Translations under genes and position numbers: made by a program
The notes under the pieces: generated by a model
The model's input: the letters and a program-made list of their open reading frames with translations, nothing else
Database searches by the model: none
Told to the model about the DNA's origin: nothing
In this document: piece by piece, positions 20,001-59,095 of the stretch
Position numbering within the stretch: the stretch's first letter is position 1
Layout of the letters: the number at the start of each line of letters is the position of its first letter
DNA from: Aplysia californica
Taxonomy: Eukaryota
Direction of reading: 5' to 3'
Assembly (NCBI RefSeq): GCF_000002075.1
Contig: NW_004797315.1
Coordinates: forward strand, 346,733 to 410,584
DNA length: 63,852 nt

Positions 20001-23000
20001 GAAACATAAATTCTGCTGGTAACACACATTTATTTGACTTCAGTTGGCCGGGAATCGAACTCTAAACCAATTGGTTTTGAATAAACATCTTTATCATTTT
20101 GTGGCGTTTCAAACAACAGACACCTACTGCAACCAAAATGAGCAGCGAGAAAACTCGCAACCCTCAAACTCTGTCCTGATGAAACCTCGCAACCCACCCG
20201 CCGGCTGACTACGTGGTTTCATCACGACAAAAATGTTGTAATGAAACCTCGCATCCCACAGCGTAGCCACATAAACAATAGAAAAGTTATTTTTATGTAC
20301 TAACCACGTTTCTAATGTGTTTTTGTCTATCTGTACCAACTTTGGTTCATATAGGTCATTTTGTTCAAGAGTAAATCAGTTTTTTGTCTCTCCTGTAAAA
20401 TTTTCCTTTCTGGGGTTACGAGGTTTCATCACTCCACCAGCGATATATATATATATATATATATACGTATACTCTCCCTTTGCTTGACTATTTTCCTATT
20501 TGACATTCTCCCTCTCTGTCTCAGATTTTACTATCATGTACGTATACTCTCCCTTTGCTAGATTATTTTCCTGTTTGATTTTGACTTTCTTTCTGTGGGT
20601 GGTTGGCGGGTGCTCTTGTGTGGTTTGCTCCTTCTGTTCCTATCAAACATTTATCGTCTTTATCTCCCCTCCTTCTTTTTTGTGTTTGTTCCTCCCTTGT
20701 AACATCTCTAATCTTCGGCATTTATATGACCTAATTGTGTTGCAAGTGCCGTAAAACTCTTACGAAAAAAAACCCTCTCTCTCTCCCTACTATGTCTCAG
20801 ATCCAGCACCTGAAACAGTTCAATGGAAATCTCCAGAGTCTGGGCCAGGCGGAGCAGTTTGTCCTCCACCTGTCAGACCTGCCAGACTACCAGACGCTCC
20901 TCACCGGTCAGCTGAGGCGGGCCGAGTTCAGCGTGAAGATCCCGCAGCTCAAGGTCGTGCTGGCGAGTACGCTGGAGGCGGCGGGGATCATCTTGTCGCA
21001 CGACGGTTTACGGGAGGTCCTGGCGCTCATCCTGCGACTGGGGAACTTCCTCAACCATGTAAGAAGACTTAATAATAATAATTGGTTGCTTTTAAGGACA
21101 AACGGGCTATCTCAGATTTTGGGGGTTTCCTGAAATCTTGATCTACACCAAAGTGGGCATTGCCCTACCTATAAGAGAAGTTTGGTTTCATTGGTGTGTA
21201 GATATTTGTTTGGTTATAGAGAAAACTCTCATTGTATTTTAAAGAAACTGAACAAGGGGCAAAAACTTTACCTTCAATTTTCTCAAAACAGCATTTTTCG
21301 AGATAGCCCCGTTGTGGCTAAAAGCGACCAATTGTAATATAGCTGGGTTCCTATTCCCACGTGGGTGAAGTGAGGAAAATTCGTGTAAAGTGCTTTTCCC
21401 AAGGACACAACGTCGGGCCCTTAATGGGATATTCCGAGAGCTTAAGCACTAAGCCACCGACTTTCAGTGTGGGTGTTTGTTGGTACTCGGGTGTTGTTTG
21501 CTCCTTCTTTCCTGTCAAACATTCATTGTCCTTACCTCTCCTCCTCCTTTTCTTCGTACGTTTCTCTTAAGTGATACCTCTTATAAATAAGTTATTTTTA
21601 GAACCTGTTTCTTTTCATGTCCAGACTGATCTTGTGCTATAGATTTGTGTTTGTTTGTGTGGTGAACATGTAGAAATGCTTTTGTAGTATTTGTTATAAA
21701 ACAAATTCCGTGGGTAGTTGGCGGGTGCTCTGGTGTGGTTTGCTCCTTCTTTTTTATCAAACATCTATCATCCTTATTTCTCCTTCTTCTTTTTTGTTTG
21801 TTACTCTCTTGTAACATCTCTTATCTTCTGGTGCTCATATGACCTTATGTAGTTGCGAGTGCCGTAAAACCTCTACTAAAACAAACATTTCATGTCCTGA
21901 CTGATCTTGTGCTATGGATTTGTGTTTGTTTGTGTGGTGAACATGTACAAGTGCTTTTGTAGATGAACAAATTCCGTGGGTGGTTGGCGGTGCTCTGGTG
22001 TGGTTTGCTCCTTCTTTCCTATCAATCATCTAACGTCCTTATCTCCCCTTCTTCTTTTTAATGTTTGTTACTCTCTTGTAACACTAATCGTTGGCACTTA
22101 TATGACCTTATTGTGTTGCAAGTGCTGTAAAGCTTACTAAACCTAAAGCCAACTATAACGTCTGAGAAAAGCTTCTTAAGGTTTCCAAAATTGTATGTGT
22201 CCGGTACCCTCAGGGTCAGTTCAACGGTTACGCCAAAGGCTTCAAACTATCCAGCCTGGTGCGTCTAGCAGACGTGAAGTGCCAGGAAGCTGGACACAAC
22301 TTTGTCCATTACTTGACCGGTCTGGTGGACAGCACAGATGACCGCATCCTCTCCTTTGTCAACGAGATCTCCAAGCTGGATAAAGCCATTAGGTAGAGTT
22401 TACCAAAACATGAGACTGGTTTGTTGTAGCATTTTGTATTTATTTATACACTGCAAGTTTTTGTTTGTTAATGGATGCTTTAACCCTATCCGTACGTCGT
22501 GTTTTACTATCGTATCCGTACGACGTGGGGAACTCTGTGCTGCCACTTTTCAAAGAGGAAATTTACTCGTTAATCCGATCCGTATGCTTTGCATAGCAGT
22601 CTGTCAAAATGACTTTGAGAAATACTGAAAAATTCAAAGAGATCTTCGTACTAGAAGTATTCTAAAATGTGAAGAATACAACTGCAGGGATGCAAAATGA
22701 CCCCAGGGCATAGAGATAGGGTTAAAGTAAAATACAGTCAAGGAGAAAAGTGGCTGTGTTAGACAGTAGTATCATTATAATGTGGAAAAAACGCAATGGA
22801 CGAATGACATTTTTCTGATTGTAAGGTTCATAAAGCTATTTGCTGCACATAAAAGAGTGTATCTTATTTTATTTTGCTTTGAATAGTTTATGCAAATGAT
22901 TGTTTGAATAATTAGAATTCCTGAGTACTGTATATGGAATAACTGGAGTTTTTCAAAAGGAATTAAAATTACTGAATCAATTGCTCAAACGCTTTATATG

Positions 23001-29000: not shown

Positions 29001-32000
29001 TCGTCCTTATCTCTTCTCCTCTTTCCCGTCAAGCACCTATCGTCCTTATCTGTCCTTTTTCTTTCCTTTCAAACATCTATCGTTCTTATCTCTCCTCCCT
29101 CTTTTCTTTGTATGTTACTCTCTTATAACATCTCTAATGTTCGGCACTTGTGTAACGTAACTGACTTTACTGTGAGAATAAACATTCTATATTCATGTAT
29201 CTATACAACTCTAAAGGTCTTGCAGTAAATGATGCATCTGATGTGATCTGTACATTGTCAGATTTACTTTTTTTTCTCAAATTGAATTTTAATGAAGGTA
29301 ATATATAATCTAATTTCTATGTATACCTGCATGTGTTTTTACGGTCCTGTAGAGCCAAGAAAAATTACCGTCTGGGACAATAAAGTATTAACTTATCTTA
29401 TCTTTGTGTTGCAAGTACTGTAGAACTGTTTACTAAAACGAAACTGATTCAGTTTTTTGCGTCTTTGTGTGTTCCAGGTGCCAGTTCGTCTATACTGGAG
29501 GACAAGCGACAAGTGATTGAAACAATCGTGACCGAACTTCACCGAGGCAACTTCAACCCGGCACTGTCCATGGCAGCGACCGCCGCTCACAACGGACTTC
29601 CTCCTACGTCTCTATCGGTCTCGCGCCGCACAGAAGCGGCCAGCAAATCCCCGCGCGTCCAGCCCGCGCCCCACTCGGCCGCCACCACCACCACGCCGGA
29701 CCGAGAGCTGAACCCGATGGAGCTAAGCCGCATCAGTCTGATGGGTACCCCGATGATGAACCGACCGAGCAGCGAACTCATCGACGACGAACTCACCATC
29801 AGCACGCTCAAACTGGGCACCAGACTTGTCACCAGTTCAGGTCAGTTTTGGTTTTCGTCATGAGACATAAGTAAATAAAAGTTAACTTTTGCTGCATGCC
29901 AAAGCCAACACACACACACACACACACACACACTGTTGACACACACACACATACCCTCAAGTTAAATTTCGCTCCATGCCACAGCCACACGCCCCCCCCC
30001 CCCCCCCCCCCCAAATCAAATGACCAAAATTTTCGTTAAAAATTTTTTTTCTCATCGCTTTGCAAAACTGCCGTTGGATTGCTGCTGTGTGCTTGCATGG
30101 TGATGTGTTCCACTTTCTCAACTTTGTGTCTCTTAGACACTTACATCATGACCTGTTTGTGGTGCAGGTACTGTAAAATTAAAACTCACACTTACACTAA
30201 AAAAACTAAAACACAACGTGCTCCTCTTTACTCAAACAAGCAGCCTTTTACTTTGAATCATTTCAAGTTTTCTTCGTTTTTTGGGTGCTCTGGTGTGGTT
30301 TGCTTCTTCTTTCCTATGAAACATCTATTGTCCTTATCGCCCCTTCTTCTTTTTTATGTTTGTTATTTTTTTGTAACAGCTCTAATCTTCTGGCGCTCAT
30401 ATGACCTTATGCTGTTGAGAGCGCCATAAAACCTCTACTAAAACTAAAAACTTTTTTTTTTTGCTGCAGTGAAAAACATTGCGGACACGGCCGCTAACTC
30501 TGGCAAGGAGAAAGCCCCAGTTATGGCCCTTCCCAAACAGTTAGTACGTACGGCCATGCAAGGCACCAAGAGGCACCACCGTAGTCGCAGCGACCTGGCC
30601 AACTCCAGCAGCGTGACTGGCAAGTGGATTAGGTGTGTAACTTAACTAGAGCCACAGTTCGCGACCCCAGTGCTTTCTTGGGGGGCTCTCGTGGCCTAGA
30701 GGTTAAGGTGTTGACCTCTCATTCAAAGGTCCCGGGTTCGAATCCGGGTAGCGACCGAAAAATTTTCTTCTCTAAAATTGTCTCCTTTCACCTCCTTTCC
30801 TGCTCTCTAGCAATATTCTGTCGTCTGCTTTTGTCTCCTCTTTCTGCCCCCACCCCCTCATCTCCCTTGCCCCCTCCTCTGGGCTCCTGACTCTTTCTGC
30901 AGCCTTTCTACTGCTACTCCTTGACTCCTTCTTACAGCTGTCTTTCTACCACACCCCTGATCTTCTGGTAGGAAAGATCTACACCTAGCCTTCTCGGACA
31001 AGGGCGAAAAATCTCGGAGTGCCCGTGTGCAAGTTGTGCACGTTAAAGATCCCTTGGTGGTCTAAAATCGATAAGAGTAGGCTTCGGCCGCCACCCGGGC
31101 AAAATTCAAAATTTCCTACCAACGAAAAAGTATTAGGTGTGTCCCGCGCGCTCATATGACCTTATGCAGTTGCGAGTGCCGTAAAACCCTATACTAAACA
31201 AACAAACAAACAAGTGCTTTCTTGTCGTATCTTCATTTTTAATAACAGTGAAAACAGTTTATGACAAAGAGTGAGCTTAAGAAGAATTCACATTTTCACT
31301 GTTTAAAAAAAAGGAGATACGACGAGAAAGCACTGAGGTCGCGAGTTCCGTTCTTGAGCTTCTGAGTTTTAGTGTCATCTGGTGGTGATATAGAAAAGGT
31401 TCTGATGATGGTATAGAAAGAGTTCTGATGATGGTATAGAAAGTGTTCTGATGATGGTATAGAGTGAGTTTGATGATGGTATAAAAAGTGTTCTGATGAT
31501 AGTATAGAAAGGGTTCTGATGATGGTATAAAAAGTGTTCTGATGATGGTATAGAAAGTGTTCTGATGATGGTATAGAAAGAGTTTAATGATGGTATAGAA
31601 AGGTTCTGATGATGGTATAGAAAGGGTGCTATAGAAATAAGCGTTCTGGTGGTGGTATAGAAAGTGTTCTGGTGGTGGTATAGAAAGTGTTCTGGTGGTG
31701 GTATAGAAAGTGTTCTGGTGGTGGTATAGAAAGGGTTTGATGATGATGTAGAAAGTGTTTGATGATGGTATAGAAAGGGTTCTGATTATGGTATGTAAAG
31801 TGTTCTGATGGTATAAGAAAGAGTTCTGACTGATGATGGTATATATATCTGGTGGTGTATAATAAAGGGTTCTGATATGGTATATAAAAACTTCTGATAG
31901 TATATAAATACCAAATTCTGATTGTATTTACAAAGGGTTCTAATATCTTAAATAAATATTAAGCTGGTATATTAATGATTTGACGATATATAAAGGTCTC

Positions 32001-45559: not shown

Positions 45560-46687
45560 TCATAATGCATCACTCGTGGGAAACAGCAATAGAAAAAGTT
45601 TCCGCCCTCTGTTCAGGTGAGGATAGTCCCCGATGAGAGCACCACGGAAATGTGCAGACGCATGGTCGACAGCGTCCGAAAGTTGCCTGGCACTTCGAGG
45701 GTAGAATTGTATCACAGCTTTCCCATTTGGCCTGAGCACTCTCCGCAACGATGAGAAAAACAAATCTAGTTGCTTATGTCTGTCTCCGTAAAACAACCAC
45801 TGGAGGAAAGAGATGCTCACAGCAATGTCAAACAAGTCTGAGCGAAAGGGAAGGCCATGTTTGATATCGTATCGAACAACGTCTGCAGCAGACGGTCTTG
45901 ACGCACTCTTGCCACAATAGATACATGCAGTGATACCCTTAGGTCCAGACACAGCAGAGTTTGATAGTCGTAAAGAATCACAACTACTACATGACGTCAT
46001 GTTTTCTCCATTGGCGGAGCGGCTGTGGAAATAGTTGGTAGAACCGGCGGTAGCTCTGCCCCCAGCTTCACACACAGGTTTTTGATAGGTGTAGAAAGTT
46101 GTTCTTGTGCGCTGGATATTTTGTCGACAGTTCACGAGGCTACCCTCATTTACATCAACACCAACACACACACCAGGACCTGCCATAGACATCAACGGCA
46201 CGGTACTGTGTCCATCTCCACATCCAATGTCTAAGACAAACTTATGGTTCTCAGACTGTGAAACATTTGAAGCTTTTCTTTCAGCTTCCGAGGTAAATGT
46301 CTCCAGAATCCCCCAGGCTGACATAACTAGTTCCGACTGAATGCTCTTTGTCCTGGTATGCCTCAAGGCTGACTCAGCATGTACCCTGTCGCTCATGATC
46401 CCATCACCCTGTGCTAACAATTCTGGACGTCTCTGAAATCCTCCTTTCAAATTTTTCACCTTGAATTGACTTACATTATCACTGAATTTGAACTCATAAG
46501 GAATATACAAGGCGTTGTTTTGGGTGTTTTTAAATACAAACACTCTGCGATCTTGCTTGTGAATTGATGCATAGTGTTTTTTACCTCGAACTATCACTTT
46601 CATCCATCTCACATATATTTCTTGGACACAGTCTCTCTTTTGGCACAGTGTGTGGAAAGGATTCAGGAATAGATGACAACTCTTCAT
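45560..46687 (-). CDS. BUD23: BUD23/WBSCR22-family class I SAM-dependent methyltransferase, divergent probable paralogue, 375 aa, single coding exon
   Basis: Motifs RRPE, IQ, VLDIGCGDG (motif I), VGVDV, D...GLPFR...FD..VSISFLQWL, FFSSL..VL, AVIQFYP and DYP...RKLFLLLF follow the BUD23 order; acceptor TTTTGCAG and an in-frame TAA lie just upstream of the ATG. Confidence 0.88.
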   Translation of the reverse strand: MKSCHLFLNPFHTLCQKRDCVQEIYVRWMKVIVRGKKHYASIHKQDRRVFVFKNTQNNALYIPYEFKFSDNVSQFKVKNLKGGFQRRPELLAQGDGIMSDRVHAESALRHTRTKSIQSELVMSAWGILETFTSEAERKASNVSQSENHKFVLDIGCGDGHSTVPLMSMAGPGVCVGVDVNEGSLVNCRQNIQRTRTTFYTYQKPVCEAGGRATAGSTNYFHSRSANGENMTSCSSCDSLRLSNSAVSGPKGITACIYCGKSASRPSAADVVRYDIKHGLPFRSDLFDIAVSISFLQWLFYGDRHKQLDLFFSSLRRVLRPNGKAVIQFYPRSARQLSDAVDHASAHFRGALIGDYPHLNRGRKLFLLLFPTSDAL

Positions 46688-48210
46688 CTCTTAATTCTGC
46701 AAAACAGATCAATTCAAAGGCAAATCAGTGACATTGGTAGACATTCTAAGCAGACTCTAAACACAAAATGTAAATGAAAATGTGTTTTTTTTCTTAAGAA
46801 ACATCAAAATAATATTTAAAAATTGTTAGCAAGAAGCTAGACGCCACTCCCCACAAGGAGATACAGTATAACACGGATAGGTCGAACACAGAAGACTTGA
46901 AATAACACATTCATAGAGCTGTGCATACAGTCCTGTTTTTTTTTTTTCTTCTTTATCTTTTTAAGATATCCTTCGAACTACGGATCCCTTGCGCTCGAAC
47001 TACCGAGGTCGGTCCAGATGAATTCGAGCTATCTGTGTTATACAGTATTCAGAACAAGCTCGCTTTCTGTGACAACTAGCAATATGCCCAAACTGTACAA
47101 CTACAATTATAAAGTAGGCAAGTAAAATTGTTCTACAAACTAAACTTGCAAAGAATATTCAGATAACAAACTATTGTAACAAAATGCCAATATTTGTATT
47201 ACAGGAATTGCAAACAATCTTTCTGCCTGTGGCCTATGTCTTATAATTATACGACAGATGACAGCTAGGAGCATAGATTTGTAAACTGTAGTAGACATAT
47301 TTTGCAAAATTAAAGTAAAAATAAATGTGATTATGTGCACACAGGAATGTCTTGTGTTGTGTATGAATTAAGTATTATACTATTTGAGCAGCGAGAAAAG
47401 GACTCCTATGGAAAAAAGAGAACTAAAGGATGGCAGAATTTATAAAGGCACTTACTTACATTTCCAAATACAAATTATAAAAATATGCTGAAAATTCATG
47501 CAACATAGATTACCAAGTGATGTAAGAAGCAACAAAAGTGAGAAAATCTTCTCTAGGAAATTCCAGTTTGGACAGTATTCTAACCCCCACCCCCTTTCCA
47601 CCTTCTAAACCTCACCCCAAATTTCTATAAATAGGCCCCAGGATAGTATGACAAACATGCTTCTGTATTGTAAATTAGAAGACCTAGTGAAACAGTTAGG
47701 TATTTGGATGATGCAATCATCAGACAATCTGATCCTGAACCTGGTTCTCAGGTAAGGTAGTGATTATCTCCCTTTGTGCACCTGGTTTCTACTCAGCAGA
47801 CAAAAAAAACAAAACAAAAAATCATGGTAGTAGCTAGCCTACATGAGCATGCAGTCATGCAGCAACTTTTTTCAACAGCTGTCCCCATTTGTGTGATTTT
47901 TAAAAATTCAGGTGTCAACCTGGGCCCAATCTTTGTTGGGCACAATAATTTTTATGGGGCCTGCAGGGGAACCATGTTTTCTTAAAGGACTAGACTATTT
48001 AAAGAATAATAGATTATAATTATAATTTTAATGTGTCCTCTTTGGCAGTCTGAAGAAAAGGCCAGAGATAAGGGATGATACAGATTATTCAAAATGAACA
48101 ACCTCCAAGTTAGCAACTGGAGTTCGGAAGAGAAGGTTAGAGGTCAGAATTCTGGACAAAGTTCTTGTCAGGTTATTTTGATACATATACATTGTAATTC
48201 TATCCTCTCT

Positions 48211-48850: not shown

Positions 48851-49124
48851 AAAGATAATAAAATAAAAAGTTATAATTAATTTAATAGAAATGTGAAATA
48901 ACCTAACCACGAACTCGAGCAATTGACGGCGTGAAGAAAATTTCACACGTTTCACTCCGTTCAGATTGATCCTTACAAAAAAGTGGAGAGCTATTTGACT
49001 GTTCAAGAGGGTACATTATTTAAATCTGTCACTGATTCTCTTATTTTTTCTTCAATTGTTTATTTCTCCAACAAGCCAATGCCGGTTATCCTCTATTTCA
49101 TCATATTTTCTACTTGAGATGGAA

Positions 49125-49440
49125 GCCGCCATGATAATTTATAAAAAGTTTTATCGGACATAAGTATACGACTCTCTACGTTCAACACAACGATATTTTG
49201 ATTGTGAAGAATAAAATATTGAGTTCATACTCTTGATATGATTTATTTACCTACATTAAGGTGAAATCTATTCCCATTTTTTCTTATTGACTAGTTATTC
49301 TCTGCCTTAACGATGAAAGTATCAAGTTTAGAGTCATTAGTTATCCTGTCTCAATTTTTAAACAGCATTGAATGAATGCGGAACAGTGTATCACAGTACA
49401 TACAGTGTAGTTGTAGTGTGAGTCTGCTGCAATCATGGCG
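49125..49440. promoter_or_regulatory. Candidate bidirectional promoter shared by the methyltransferase (-) and HARS (+)
   Basis: Divergent YY1-like CATGGCG motifs at 49125-49133 (-) and 49434-49440 (+), about 300 bp apart; candidate - strand donor GTTAGG near 48907. Confidence 0.5.
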
Positions 49441-49527
49441 GATAACGATAAGAAATTACAGGAAAAGATAAAGAGTCAGGGTGAACTCGTGAGAAAATTG
49501 AAAGCTGATGGTGCTGATAAAGCGAAG
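49435..49527 (+). CDS. HARS: First coding exon (WHEP domain helix 1) of an aminoacyl-tRNA synthetase, most likely cytosolic HisRS
   Basis: MADNDKKLQEKIKSQGELVRKLKADGADKAK|GTAG; QG.LVR.LK is the WHEP signature; length and phase-0 intron position fit HisRS exon 1; WARS or GARS are less likely alternatives. Confidence 0.8.
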
Positions 49528-49779
49528 GTAGAGTATAGTTCACCTTTCATTAGTCTGGAATGTTTAATCGACTGTATCTCTCTTTGTTTACGTGTAATGT
49601 AGCAGACCAGTAGTTTGATTCAGTCTGGCAGCTGTCACTCTCTCTCTGGCCTCTGCTGTCACATTTTTGTCGTCATTCTCTAAACAAATTTTTGACTTGG
49701 GAAGTTGAAGGAATCTCACTTTAGTACCTGTCTTTAGAGCTGTCCTTATTTTTCCATGAATGTAGTAGTCCCCTGGCAC

Positions 49780-56320: not shown

Positions 56321-57545
56321 CAGTTTAGTAGTTTTCCACCGCTCAATGAGTGTTTTGTGCACCCAGTTTGGTCGGTCACCTGAAGGGTTATATTATATTT
56401 GAGTTTGCTTTCTGTGTGAAATTGAGTTTGACACCCCGTGGTGGAGACAGAAAATGTTTTATCAGTGGTGTGCCTGATTGATGTCAGCGTAATTGATAAG
56501 GGAGTGTGTCAGGTGTGTAGTTAGTGGGTCATGGTGCGCATGTTTCGGGGCATGGTGGAGTTTGATGGTCTGAGGTCAGTTATCTCAGCTCGTAAATTCC
56601 CGCAGCAGCCGTTTCGTTTCTTCTTTTTTTTTTTATGATCATAGTTTATGATGGCCGTATATCTCCTCTGTCATTCTGCTGATGTTGTAGGGTATGATAA
56701 TCATTTTGCCTTTGTGAGCAATTTGTTCTTTTCAATTTGAAAATGACAGCTGTCTTTTTTTGCCTGTGTAAAAAAGAGAGTATTTATAAAAGCAGGAATT
56801 TTGTGCTCTGAGACGCGGCGTAACTTCGGAGTGATTAAAGCTGGTGGCAAACTGAAGCATGCTATTACCAGAGTTGGATGGGTTTTGCTAGTCAGAGATA
56901 ACTAAAGAATGGTCTCGGTGATTTCAAACAATCGTTGGTCCTTGAGATAATTGACAATTTAGAAGTGATGTCGATCGCTTATGCACGGCTATTTGTTTTG
57001 TTCCAATTAAAGGAGGGTTTATTGGAGAAAGCACTTCTTGTACTCTGTCTAGTAGTAAATGAAACAGTTTCACCTTTTTTCTTCCCCACTGATGCTACTG
57101 TAGTTGCCACCAGAGCCATGCATTGTTTTCATATGTGTTAAATACGAACATTTCATTGCTGAACTGTGTTCAAGATATGTCACCTGTTGTTCCGTGACCT
57201 CAAAAAGCAGAGAAGGATTTAATGTCAAACAGACTCCCTGTGTGCCCTGTGGTTATTATTGCTGTTATTTGGCTGCTCTACAACACAGGACTTTTTTTTA
57301 AAAATATCAGTGATAAAGGGAATTCTTGCCCATTATCTCTCAGACAACTATTTTTGGCACTCCTGATATCAGCTGTTGACTGTTTTGAATTTAAATGATA
57401 AAGTATTCCACCGTCAAGACAGCTGCTACTGTTTTTAATGAGCTAGTTTCTGTTACCTGAATTGTGAATCTGCAGGGAAGTTATTGTGATTGTGGAGAGA
57501 AGTTTTCATTAGCTGAATTGTGATTGTGCAGGAAAATGTAAGAGA

Positions 57546-57776
57546 ATGGCTACTTCTAACTGTGCTGGACGAGAACACGTGCAGGAAAAGTTGTTGGCGT
57601 GGAAGAGTAAAGAGCCTCCCTGGGATTACGAATACCACGAGCGAGATATCGTCATATCAGATTTGTGCCCCATGTTTAAGAGAACCAGGATCAGTCGCTT
57701 AATGAATGAAATCCACGAACGGATAGTTGCGATCAAACAGAAGTATCCGCGAGACCCAAAGTTGCGCAAAGCCAAG
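57546..57776 (+). CDS. Candidate alternative first (or cassette) exon of HARS, 77 aa, unknown function
   Basis: AGAATGG start context, coding-like composition, ends LRKAK with strong phase-0 donor AAG|GTAACT. Confidence 0.55.
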
Positions 57777-59095
57777 GTAACTGTTGCTTAGCCTGCCCAC
57801 TCTGCTAAGTCCTGATGGCTCAATTTTACTTGCCTAAAACTTCATAGAAGCCATATATATTATGATTTATATCTTATTTTGTTCTTTCAAGAGCTTGATT
57901 AGAGAAAAGTTTGCTTGCACTTTAATTCATCTTAACTAAATAATAGTAGAACTCCTCTGAGATGTGTATTAAGGAAACCAGCATGCACATCAGTTGGGCA
58001 GTTGTGTCATACTATCTGAGGTTTGTAGAATTACTGAACAAATTGTTTGAGCATCTCAAGAATTTCATTGAGATTCGCCTGTTACAGTTGTGTGTGCTTT
58101 ACATCAACAGTTCGCCGTTCCAATGTCTATTTGAATCCTATTTCTCACGCCGGCTAGTTTGGAAGGAATTCTGTACCGAGCGACAATATGAAACAGTAGA
58201 ATAGAGAGTTATGGTTTAAGGTAAGAGTAAGGTTAGGGGTCGGGTCAGTGTTAGATTTAGGTGGTTTCTTTATAAATTGTGTTTGTTAGGGTGGTCGCCC
58301 GTTACAGAAGTCTTTCCACTAGTTTGATTCATCTTTCAACAAATGTGACCAGCTGCCACAGTGGTTTTCTTTTTTCGTTTGTGTTCTTTTTATAAATGGG
58401 TGCTTGTATTTGAGAGGATGTTGTGCATTGAATGGGCTCGTATGCATAAAACATGTCGTTATGTACTCTGTCAATTTTTTTTTCTAGAGAAGTGGTTTTT
58501 ATTGTCATTATTGTTGTTGGTGGTGGTGTTGTTATAATGTTATTGTTATTAAAGCTGAGACAAAACATGTCAATACAGAGATGATAATTAGGATTAGTTT
58601 GGCTGAAAGGTATTACTTTGAATGCAGTACATGTATGATATAGAGAAAATAGGGAAGGAGTTCCGCAGAGGGACGGTACTTACCGTGACACGGTCCACCG
58701 AGCAAACTTTACAAGAGTTAGGGTTAGGGTATACCCTGCTCAAAATATCCCCTCTTTTGTGTTTTGTTGGTCGGCCGGCCCTCTGTACAACTCCTTCCGA
58801 AAATAGTAACTGGGGCTTGAATCAACTGAGTAGCTTATAAAAATGTGTGTGGTGTAGTCTAAAACACAGACTGGGGATCTGCACTGTATTCTCTTTCCCC
58901 TTTTTGCTTTATCCGTTTCTCACCAGATTTGCTGACAAAGGAATATTTTTCTGCTTTGCTTTGCATATCTTGACGGTGTTGTTGGTGTGATCTGTGACTT
59001 CTTCTCACGGGACCTGTGTTATTTCTTCTTGTGGCCCTGACCCTCGTTCCTTCACTCGGCTGTTGTGGACGCTGGTCACTTACACTTTACGCAAA

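What the first reader, a model, noticed from the sequence alone, without database searches (positions are those of the whole stretch)
45560..46687. Intronless, remodelled BUD23-like methyltransferase: possible second m7G RNA methylase
Seen: the BUD23 motif order is kept in one uninterrupted 375-codon frame. It has about 85 extra N-terminal residues, about 75 inserted residues, and ends six residues after KLFLLLF. Known: canonical BUD23/WBSCR22 (18S rRNA m7G, TRMT112 partner) starts close to RPE and has a basic C-terminal tail, which is absent here. Inference: a retroposed or ancient paralogue kept intact, possibly with a different substrate or compartment.
Basis: partly seen in the sequence, partly recalled or inferred. 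Interest (0 to 1): 0.7.

Follow-up and report, generated by a model that had tools for sequence, protein, structure and literature searches.

The report
Second BUD23, likely mitochondrial, in molluscs
This gene, likely from a sea hare, is an old second copy of the ribosomal-RNA methylase BUD23, also found in other molluscs and an annelid; it lacks the nuclear-targeting tail and carries a leader that likely sends it into mitochondria, where it would add a methyl mark not among the five known on human mitochondrial small-subunit rRNA.

Summary
The 375-codon frame is real and folds like BUD23 (Z 21.7). It is not the genome's BUD23 orthologue: a canonical multi-exon BUD23 lies on contig C1314, and trees reject a recent copy (AU p=0.00015). 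The paralogue occurs in gastropods, a bivalve genus, a cephalopod and an annelid. All members share a ~37-residue module before RPE, and nearly all lack the basic NLS-bearing tail. SAM, guanine-pocket and TRMT112-contact residues are kept; two canonical-specific loops are remodelled. The 75-residue insert is a variable, lineage-limited disordered loop. Only the coding region is intronless: spliced contigs show a 5'-UTR intron. The first ~45 residues are basic and acid-poor in 36 of 37 members, like mitochondrial presequences. Best reading: a mitochondrial BUD23–TRMT112 enzyme making m7G at the 12S guanine aligned to the 18S target. Location and substrate are untested.

The parts
45560..46687 (-). 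Single-exon coding sequence of the BUD23 paralogue, 375 aa
   Evidence: contigs of runs X4, X18, X19 span it without a joint
46550..46687 (-). Residues 1-46: basic, acid-poor leader, predicted long helix 18-43, ending in a K-H-Y-A-S motif; likely mitochondrial presequence (inferred)
46439..46549 (-). Residues 47-83: family-specific module (strand, strand, short helix; pLDDT about 90), absent from canonical BUD23; role unknown
46421..46429 (-). RPE motif (87-89), the start of the BUD23 core
46211..46231 (-). SAM-binding motif I, D153-G159 (D153, G155, G157 in 44 of 44 family rows)
45893..46090 (-). Variable insert, about residues 200-265, predicted disordered (pLDDT <50 at 214-255); long only in heterobranch-like members
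45827..45883 (-). D269, R282, D287 = yeast Bud23 D94, R107, D112, the three electrostatic Trm112 contacts
45797..45817 (-). SISFLQW 291-297 (S293, Q296, W297 = yeast S118, Q121, W122), guanine-pocket segment (role recalled, not from a call)
45698..45709 (-). QFYP 327-330 (Y329 = yeast Y159; Y in 44 of 44 family rows)
46691..46693 (-). In-frame TAA two codons upstream of the ATG, inside the exon: the ATG is the first possible start
46697..46712 (-). 3' splice site of a 5'-UTR intron (pyrimidine tract and CAG; AG at 46697-46698)
   Evidence: contigs of X20 and X4 stop matching at 46697 and run on for 154 and 494 nt elsewhere; X7 stops at 46696
49435..49527 (+). First coding exon (WHEP domain) of histidyl-tRNA synthetase, head-to-head with the paralogue, 2.7 kb apart; neighbour, not part of the gene

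Best explanation
This is a spliced, conserved second BUD23 gene of molluscs and at least one annelid; its protein lacks the C-terminal nuclear tail, is likely imported into mitochondria by its basic N-terminal leader, and would there, likely paired with TRMT112, N7-methylate the 12S rRNA guanine that aligns with BUD23's 18S target. Shown: the intact frame, BUD23 fold, separate canonical gene, family range, loss of tail, conserved SAM, pocket and TRMT112-contact residues, remodelled loops, and presence of the aligned guanine in this genome's 12S rRNA. Inferred: import and cleavage of the leader near Y39/A40; TRMT112 binding; catalysis; the substrate. Also inferred: the new module and changed loops replace contacts that canonical BUD23 makes on the pre-40S particle with contacts on the mitochondrial small subunit. 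Rough odds: functional paralogue 0.97, mitochondrial 0.65, 12S guanine as substrate given mitochondrial 0.6.
For: Paralogy: canonical BUD23 on C1314 with nine in-frame GT-AG exons plus a basic last exon. 21 family rows split from 25 canonical rows at 98/93. Query plus canonical as a clade is rejected, p-AU 0.00015; nine gastropod-like rows plus canonical, p-AU 0.0005. Range: Elysia, Plakobranchus, Candidula, Physella, Lymnaea, Biomphalaria, Bulinus, Babylonia, Littorina, Haliotis, Gigantopelta, Patella, Mytilus, Argonauta, Owenia. Tail: 43 of 44 family rows have <=20 residues after the last strand; 41 of 46 canonical-type rows have >=42. Human BUD23 without its C-terminal domain is cytoplasmic and does not rescue yeast (PMC4516353, passages). 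Leader: K+R 17.4%, D+E 3.5%, against 11.9% and 9.6% in the rest. Net charge is >0 in 36 of 37 and >=+3 in 35 of 37 rows with a leader of at least 12 aa. An R/K-x-[FYL]-[AST]-type motif plus net >=+3 occurs in 20 of 37, against 7% of 405 non-coding Met-started peptides. These features match the description of targeting peptides in PMC12050285 (passages). Catalysis: D153, G155, G157, D178, S291, W297, Q327, Y329 in 44 of 44 rows. TRMT112 contacts D94/R107/D112 (PMC4678810 section 20) are kept in the query; family D 26, R/K 41, D 37 of 44. Human TRMT112 has a mitochondrial matrix pool (PMC13539109 section 31). Substrate face changed: PxxR after QWL in 0 of 44 against 35 of 46; aromatic-Y after RPE in 9 of 43 against 43 of 45. 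The 18S GGAAUUCCCAGUAA stretch aligns to 12S GGACUUAACAGUAA, 63 against 61 nt before the conserved CGCCCGUC.
Against: No targeting predictor or experiment was run. The leader is rich in K (9.5%) and poor in A (2.3%), unlike the A/R/L/S enrichment in PMC12050285. Single leaders are not unusual alone: 19% of control peptides reach net +5, and the query's +7 has p=0.06. The cleavage motif was chosen after looking at the alignment, and 12 of its 20 hits are related heterobranch-like rows. Mytilus (2 rows), Gigantopelta and P0026 have no leader as annotated, and P0101 has net 0. In heterobranchs the basic patch also fits a K-K/R-x-K/R nuclear signal. The target guanine is universally conserved (recalled), so its presence says little. 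The tyrosine 10-11 residues before the invariant Q, kept in 44 of 45 canonical rows, is present in 25 of 43 family rows and absent in the query, and residues 91-110 have pLDDT 66-67, so activity may be reduced. Two poly(A) read sets of about 1.5 Gb each gave depth 0-0.1 over the coding region. Of 8 sequence differences seen in the coding region, 5 change the residue.
Confidence: 0.4

Rival explanations
1. The protein is mitochondrial but acts mainly as a small-subunit assembly factor, or methylates another mitochondrial RNA (tRNA, mRNA, 16S), not the aligned 12S guanine.
For: Same leader evidence. Catalytically dead Bud23 still supports ribosome assembly (PMC7758049 passages; PMC5372719 passages). 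The RNA-facing segments are remodelled, and the lid region is degenerate in gastropods.
Against: SAM and pocket residues are invariant in 44 of 44 rows across distant molluscs and an annelid, which argues for retained guanine methylation. The closest fold by a wide margin is BUD23 (Z 23.8 against 18.4 for the next, Mytilus model).
Confidence: 0.25
2. It is a second nuclear or cytosolic enzyme for the same 18S guanine (a tissue- or stage-specific back-up, or a specialised-ribosome enzyme), with the basic leader serving as a replacement nuclear signal.
For: Pocket and TRMT112 contacts are kept. Heterobranch leaders hold K-R-F-K/R-K-like patches. Read depth is very low in two poly(A) samples while spliced contigs exist in others, which would fit restricted expression.
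Against: The tail needed for nuclear location and function is gone. The canonical loop after QWL and the aromatic-Y motif after RPE are lost. Leaders of Littorina, Babylonia, Haliotis, P0043 and P0051 lack such a lysine cluster and are acid-poor along their length.
Confidence: 0.22
3. It has left RNA metabolism and N7-methylates a free purine or other small molecule.
For: The Bud23 active site resembles xanthosine methyltransferase (PMC5372719 passages), and rRNA-specific loops are lost.
Against: RPE, the invariant Q117, a basic residue five before it (38 of 43) and K363 (43 of 44) are kept, along with the TRMT112 contacts. All six top structural rows are Bud23/BUD23.
Confidence: 0.08
4. It is a decaying retrocopy of BUD23 with no function.
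For: Single coding exon; near-zero reads in two runs; 5 of 8 observed differences are non-synonymous.
Against: Orthologues with invariant catalytic residues across gastropods, a bivalve genus, a cephalopod and an annelid. A recent origin is rejected. Spliced contigs exist.
Confidence: 0.02

Closest known systems
Yeast Bud23 / human BUD23 (WBSCR22) with Trm112/TRMT112, 18S rRNA m7G1575/G1639 methyltransferase (PDB 4QTT, 4QTU, 7WTT, 6G4W)
   Same: Fold (Z 21.7, rmsd 2.4, 174 aligned to 4qtt_B), motif order, SAM motif, SxSxxQW and QFYP segments, RPE, and the three electrostatic Trm112 contacts.
   Different: No PF12589 basic tail or NLS. An added leader and ~37-residue module. The loop after QWL is about 5 residues shorter and lacks PxxR. 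The lid region after RPE is diverged. Single coding exon. Only 37% identity to this genome's canonical BUD23 over the best 115 columns.
Human TRMT11-TRMT112 (m2G10 on mitochondrial tRNAs; PMC13539109)
   Same: A TRMT112-partner methyltransferase imported into the mitochondrial matrix together with TRMT112: the precedent for the proposed mechanism.
   Different: One dual-located gene, a THUMP-domain tRNA enzyme making m2G. Here a dedicated paralogue of BUD23 is proposed.
Mitochondrial 12S rRNA methyltransferases TFB1M, TRMT2B, NSUN4, METTL15 (PMC7379855)
   Same: Proposed compartment and RNA class.
   Different: They make m62A, m5U, m5C and m4C, the five 12S marks listed for humans. None makes m7G, and none is a BUD23 relative (family membership recalled).

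Membership tests
BUD23/WBSCR22 family (homology) | Class I SAM-methyltransferase fold closest to Bud23 | tested here: met
   Bud23/BUD23 chains are the top rows by sequence and structure
BUD23/WBSCR22 family (homology) | RPE, IQ, DIGCG, SxSxxQW, QFYP, K of last strand | tested here: met
   present in the query and in 40-44 of 44 family rows
BUD23 orthologue (nuclear 18S m7G enzyme) | Starts at RPE and ends in a basic WBS_methylT tail carrying the NLS | tested here: not met
   NLS role from PMC4516353 passages
BUD23 orthologue (nuclear 18S m7G enzyme) | Groups with canonical BUD23 and is the genome's only copy | tested here: not met
BUD23 orthologue (nuclear 18S m7G enzyme) | Canonical loop after QWL (PxxR) and aromatic-Y motif after RPE | tested here: not met
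   0 of 44 and 9 of 43 family rows against 35 of 46 and 43 of 45; both absent in the query
TRMT112-dependent methyltransferases | Electrostatic contacts equivalent to Bud23 D94, R107, D112 | tested here: met
   D269, R282, D287 in the query; D269 is replaced (mostly by H) in 18 of 44 family rows
TRMT112-dependent methyltransferases | Physical complex with TRMT112 | not tested
Mitochondrial matrix proteins with a cleavable presequence | Basic, acid-poor, helical N-terminal leader with an R-2/R-3-type end | tested here: inconclusive
   composition fits across the family, but it is K-rich, the motif was chosen after the fact, and four rows lack a leader
Mitochondrial matrix proteins with a cleavable presequence | Import and cleavage | not testable with these tools
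   needs a targeting predictor and an import assay
rRNA m7G methyltransferase | Methyl transfer to N7 of a small-subunit rRNA guanine | not testable with these tools
   only the aligned guanine was located

The most novel reading that the evidence does not exclude
Molluscs and annelids have re-routed a copy of the nuclear ribosome-assembly enzyme BUD23 into mitochondria. With a new N-terminal module and mitochondrial TRMT112, it writes a eukaryote-type m7G mark in the P-site of a bacterial-type ribosome: a mitoribosome modification and assembly factor that vertebrate-centred studies could not have found.
Probability: 0.38. Interest if true: 0.82.

Novelty: new variant of a known kind. Interest (0 to 1): 0.62.

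Why it matters
BUD23 is treated as a single-copy nuclear enzyme, and the five methyl marks listed for human 12S rRNA include no m7G (PMC7379855 passages). A conserved, tail-less paralogue with a presequence-like leader gives one sharp, cheap prediction: an m7G at a named guanine of molluscan mitochondrial 12S rRNA. If true, a cytosolic-ribosome modification was transplanted onto the mitoribosome in a large animal clade. Even if the substrate differs, databases label these proteins '18S rRNA methyltransferase' or 'uncharacterized', so they form an unrecognised second BUD23 subfamily with a domain addition of its own.

Tried and rejected
TRMT112 complex prediction: the predictor was not available, so binding is untested. 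Idea that the new module replaces TRMT112: not supported, since all three Trm112 contact residues are kept in the query. No coordinates were returned to see where the module packs. The module matched nothing in the PDB searches (aligned ranges start at residue 46 of the Mytilus model and about 86 of the query) or in the ESM Atlas (best 0.81, no family). It was not folded alone, so its fold is open. PF12589 search of the genome found nothing, but the control rang nowhere either. The canonical gene was found instead with protein P0032. The exons between its ninth and last exon were not found. The look-up of sequencing runs listed no holder on record as RNA. dN/dS could not be computed: no DNA of close relatives was obtained. 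The metagenome scan returned 80 loci (the best 80 of 504), none with the module at E<0.1, and those with a readable start look canonical. Age of the duplication: family plus this genome's canonical gene as one clade is not rejected (p-AU 0.076), so an origin within animals stays open. In the 84-row quick tree the family sat beside long-branched unnamed BUD23-like proteins (support 88), which may be long-branch attraction, and 9 of the 10 looked up had no name. Rfam did not recognise the mitochondrial 12S, so it was aligned pairwise. The Bud23-Trm112 structure paper was not held. Literature searches that showed no description of this family: BUD23+paralog+mitochondrial (31 papers, 20 listed), mitochondrial+12S rRNA+m7G+mollusc (1, with no BUD23 or WBSCR22 mention), mitoribosome+m7G+rRNA modifications+small subunit (9), BUD23+mollusc (0), BUD23+G1338 (0), Bud23+R27E (0), WBSCR22/duplication/lophotrochozoa (10 listed of 1,210, none with WBSCR22). 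Subscription journals are largely outside this library.

Full report
OBSERVATION. The frame is there as described: ATG at 46687 to TGA at 45560 on the minus strand, 375 residues. Pfam gives only general SAM-methyltransferase families and not the BUD23 tail family PF12589. The best solved-structure matches are yeast Bud23 (E 4.6e-19) and human BUD23 (E 4.4e-15). An AlphaFold2 model built on 90 sequences (mean pLDDT 79, pTM 0.76) aligns best to Bud23 (4qtt_B, Z 21.7, rmsd 2.4, 174 residues). All six top rows are Bud23/BUD23, and the next fold is at Z 17.3. The genome is probably a sea hare: its TRMT112 last exon is 100% identical to the protein NCBI names from Aplysia californica.

GENE STRUCTURE AND EXPRESSION. 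On the minus strand the ATG is preceded by a pyrimidine tract, CAG and nine bases that hold an in-frame TAA. Contigs from runs X20 and X4 match the gene up to 46697 and then continue for 154 and 494 nt on sequence that is not the adjoining genome; one from X7 stops at 46696. That is a spliced 5'-UTR intron, and it shows these contigs come from RNA. X18 and X19 read through the site (to 46890 and 46803), so unspliced forms or DNA are present there, and X1 is probably DNA. The coding region is one exon. Against strong expression: two poly(A) raw-read runs (about 1.5 Gb each) gave depth 0-0.1 over the coding region. About 95% of the reads laid from them ran on into unlike sequence, so they mostly reflect repeats. 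The upstream exon was not placed. The nearest gene start upstream is histidyl-tRNA synthetase, head-to-head at 49435 (WHEP exon; later exons with TPK, RYDLT, GRYREFYQC and GGRYD motifs), so a shared promoter is possible but not shown.

A SECOND BUD23. The query has one match in the genome, itself. A canonical BUD23 query finds a second locus on C1314. There, nine GT-AG exons join in frame from an RPE at residue 6, and a last exon ends in the basic tail motif. Homologue searches returned 29 proteins and 39, and a profile search of 1.84 billion representatives listed its best 150 of 7,248. Named members come from Elysia, Plakobranchus, Candidula, Physella, Lymnaea, Biomphalaria, Bulinus, Babylonia, Littorina, Haliotis, Gigantopelta, Patella, Mytilus, Argonauta and the annelid Owenia. 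Five deep members (P0043, P0049, P0051, P0066, P0101) are unnamed. In a careful tree of 46 hand-picked rows (204 columns), 21 family rows are separated from 25 canonical rows at 98/93. Holding the query, or nine gastropod-like rows, together with this genome's canonical gene is rejected (p-AU 0.00015 and 0.0005). Holding the whole family with it is not rejected (0.076). The duplication therefore predates the mollusc-annelid split, and could be either within animals or older.

WHAT IS KEPT. I compared 44 family rows with 46 canonical-type rows, picked by hand from the 150 listed for moderate length. Q117, D153, G155, G157, D178, S291, W297, Q327 and Y329 are invariant in the family. S293 (43), Q296 (42), R87, E89, P356 and K363 (42-43) nearly so. 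By the alignment, S293, Q296, W297 and Y329 are yeast S118, Q121, W122 and Y159. Their role as the guanine pocket is recalled, as the structure paper was not held. The three electrostatic Trm112 contacts of Bud23 (D94, R107, D112; PMC4678810, section 20 part 1 read) are D269, R282 and D287 in the query, kept as D in 26, R/K in 41 and D in 37 of 44 rows.

WHAT IS CHANGED. (1) The tail: 43 of 44 family rows end within 20 residues of the last strand; 41 of 46 canonical-type rows have 42 or more. In human BUD23 this region holds the NLS, and the tail-less domain is cytoplasmic and does not rescue yeast (PMC4516353, passages). (2) Two segments typical of canonical BUD23 are remodelled: PxxR after QWL in 0 of 44 against 35 of 46, and an aromatic-Y pair after RPE in 9 of 43 against 43 of 45. 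A tyrosine 10-11 residues before the invariant Q is in 25 of 43 against 44 of 45 and is missing in the query. That these segments face the RNA is inference. (3) A module at residues 47-83 is conserved (T55 in 33 of 41, F/L75 in 41 of 41, G83 in 34 of 41). It is modelled as two strands and a short helix at pLDDT about 90 in both the query and the compact Mytilus protein (mean pLDDT 92). A profile of it hits 52 of 308 session proteins at E<=0.001, all family members, 41 of them in the training set; the next hit is E 1.5. None of 80 metagenome BUD23 loci scores under E 0.1. (4) The insert is not a family trait: the D178-D274 span is 33-107 residues in the 16 heterobranch-like rows and 20-33 in the other 28, and it is predicted disordered. 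(5) A leader precedes the module. It differs in sequence between lineages but not in make-up: K+R 17.4% and D+E 3.5%, against 11.9% and 9.6% in the rest of the same proteins; net charge is positive in 36 of 37 rows with at least 12 residues. Non-coding Met-started 40-mers from this genome have K+R 11.8% and D+E 6.4%. A cleavage-like motif with net charge of at least +3 is in 20 of 37 leaders against 7% of 405 controls. The motif was defined after seeing the data, and the rows are related. Targeting peptides are described as positively charged, D/E-depleted, helical, typically about 35 residues, with R-2/R-3 ends (PMC12050285, passages). The leaders fit this except for being K-rich and A-poor. 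Four rows, including both Mytilus proteins, have no leader as annotated.

MECHANISM. Loss of the nuclear tail plus gain of a variable basic leader is most simply a change of address to mitochondria (inferred, about 0.65). TRMT112 is available there in human cells (PMC13539109, abstract and section 31 read), and the contacts for it are kept. The pocket is intact, so a guanine N7 methylation is the likely chemistry. BUD23's known target lies in the P-site region of 18S rRNA (PMC3484107, abstract start in a search listing). This genome's 18S and mitochondrial 12S (contig C4332) align at GGAAUUCCCAGUAA / GGACUUAACAGUAA, 63 and 61 nt before the conserved CGCCCGUC, which places the matching guanine at C4332:9745. 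That the second G is the m7G site, and equals E. coli G1338, is recalled. I commit to m7G at this 12S guanine at about 0.4 overall. The rivals are a mitochondrial role with another substrate or mainly in assembly (0.25; catalytically dead Bud23 still supports assembly, PMC7758049 and PMC5372719 passages), a second nuclear or cytosolic 18S enzyme (0.22), a small-molecule purine methylase (0.08) and a dead copy (0.02).

COMPARISON AND NOVELTY. It works like BUD23 and belongs to the BUD23 family by descent, but fails the tests for a BUD23 orthologue (tail, tree position, canonical loops). The five methyl marks listed for human 12S rRNA are m62A twice, m5U, m5C and m4C (PMC7379855, passages). Seven literature searches (listings only, plus passages of PMC8662637, and PMC9849454) showed no description of this paralogue. 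The library lacks most subscription journals, and no supplements were read. The scan's own notes held nothing similar by sequence or place. By words they held only reports of duplicated Bud23 in Asgard archaea, which I did not test. Verdict: a real, apparently undescribed second BUD23 subfamily; new variant of a known kind; interest 0.62.

Noticed in passing
window 49435-49527 (+); further exons in L017-L018 (G000:C45 about 415.9-428.9 kb): Histidyl-tRNA synthetase lies head-to-head with the paralogue; its first coding exon (WHEP) is followed by a gap of about 20 kb before the next exon found. A contig of run X18 covers 48860-49529, which could hold overlapping 5' ends of both genes.
   Followed up: partly
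window about 5.2-34.2 kb (+): Exons of a formin gene (FH3 at 5181-5570, FH2 at 20735-21130), converging on the paralogue's 3' end.
   Followed up: no
G000:C3224:3025-3090 and 6371-6436; G000:C640:180000-180065: The TRMT112 family matches three places over the cut-off; the two on small contig C3224 read the same last exon and may be an assembly duplicate or tandem copy.
   Followed up: partly
window 57513-57791 (+): A 92-codon open frame inside the HARS gap with a weak Furin-like match (E 7e-4, below cut-off); could be a repeat remnant or an alternative exon.
   Followed up: no
proteins P0105, P0119, P0129, P0133, P0153, P0155, P0162, P0163, P0164, P0170, P0171: Other divergent BUD23-like proteins without the module form long branches near the family; the ESM Atlas lists a 585-aa BUD23-like cluster mostly from green algae. 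Further second-BUD23 lineages may exist.
   Followed up: partly
proteins P0002, P0003, P0180: The query's closest relatives have RPE changed to RLE or RFE and GGF changed to ASF or SSF, a sign of continuing divergence in this sub-lineage.
   Followed up: no
window 31371-31904: Tandem array of a 23-base unit, about 20 copies, inside the formin gene region.
   Followed up: no
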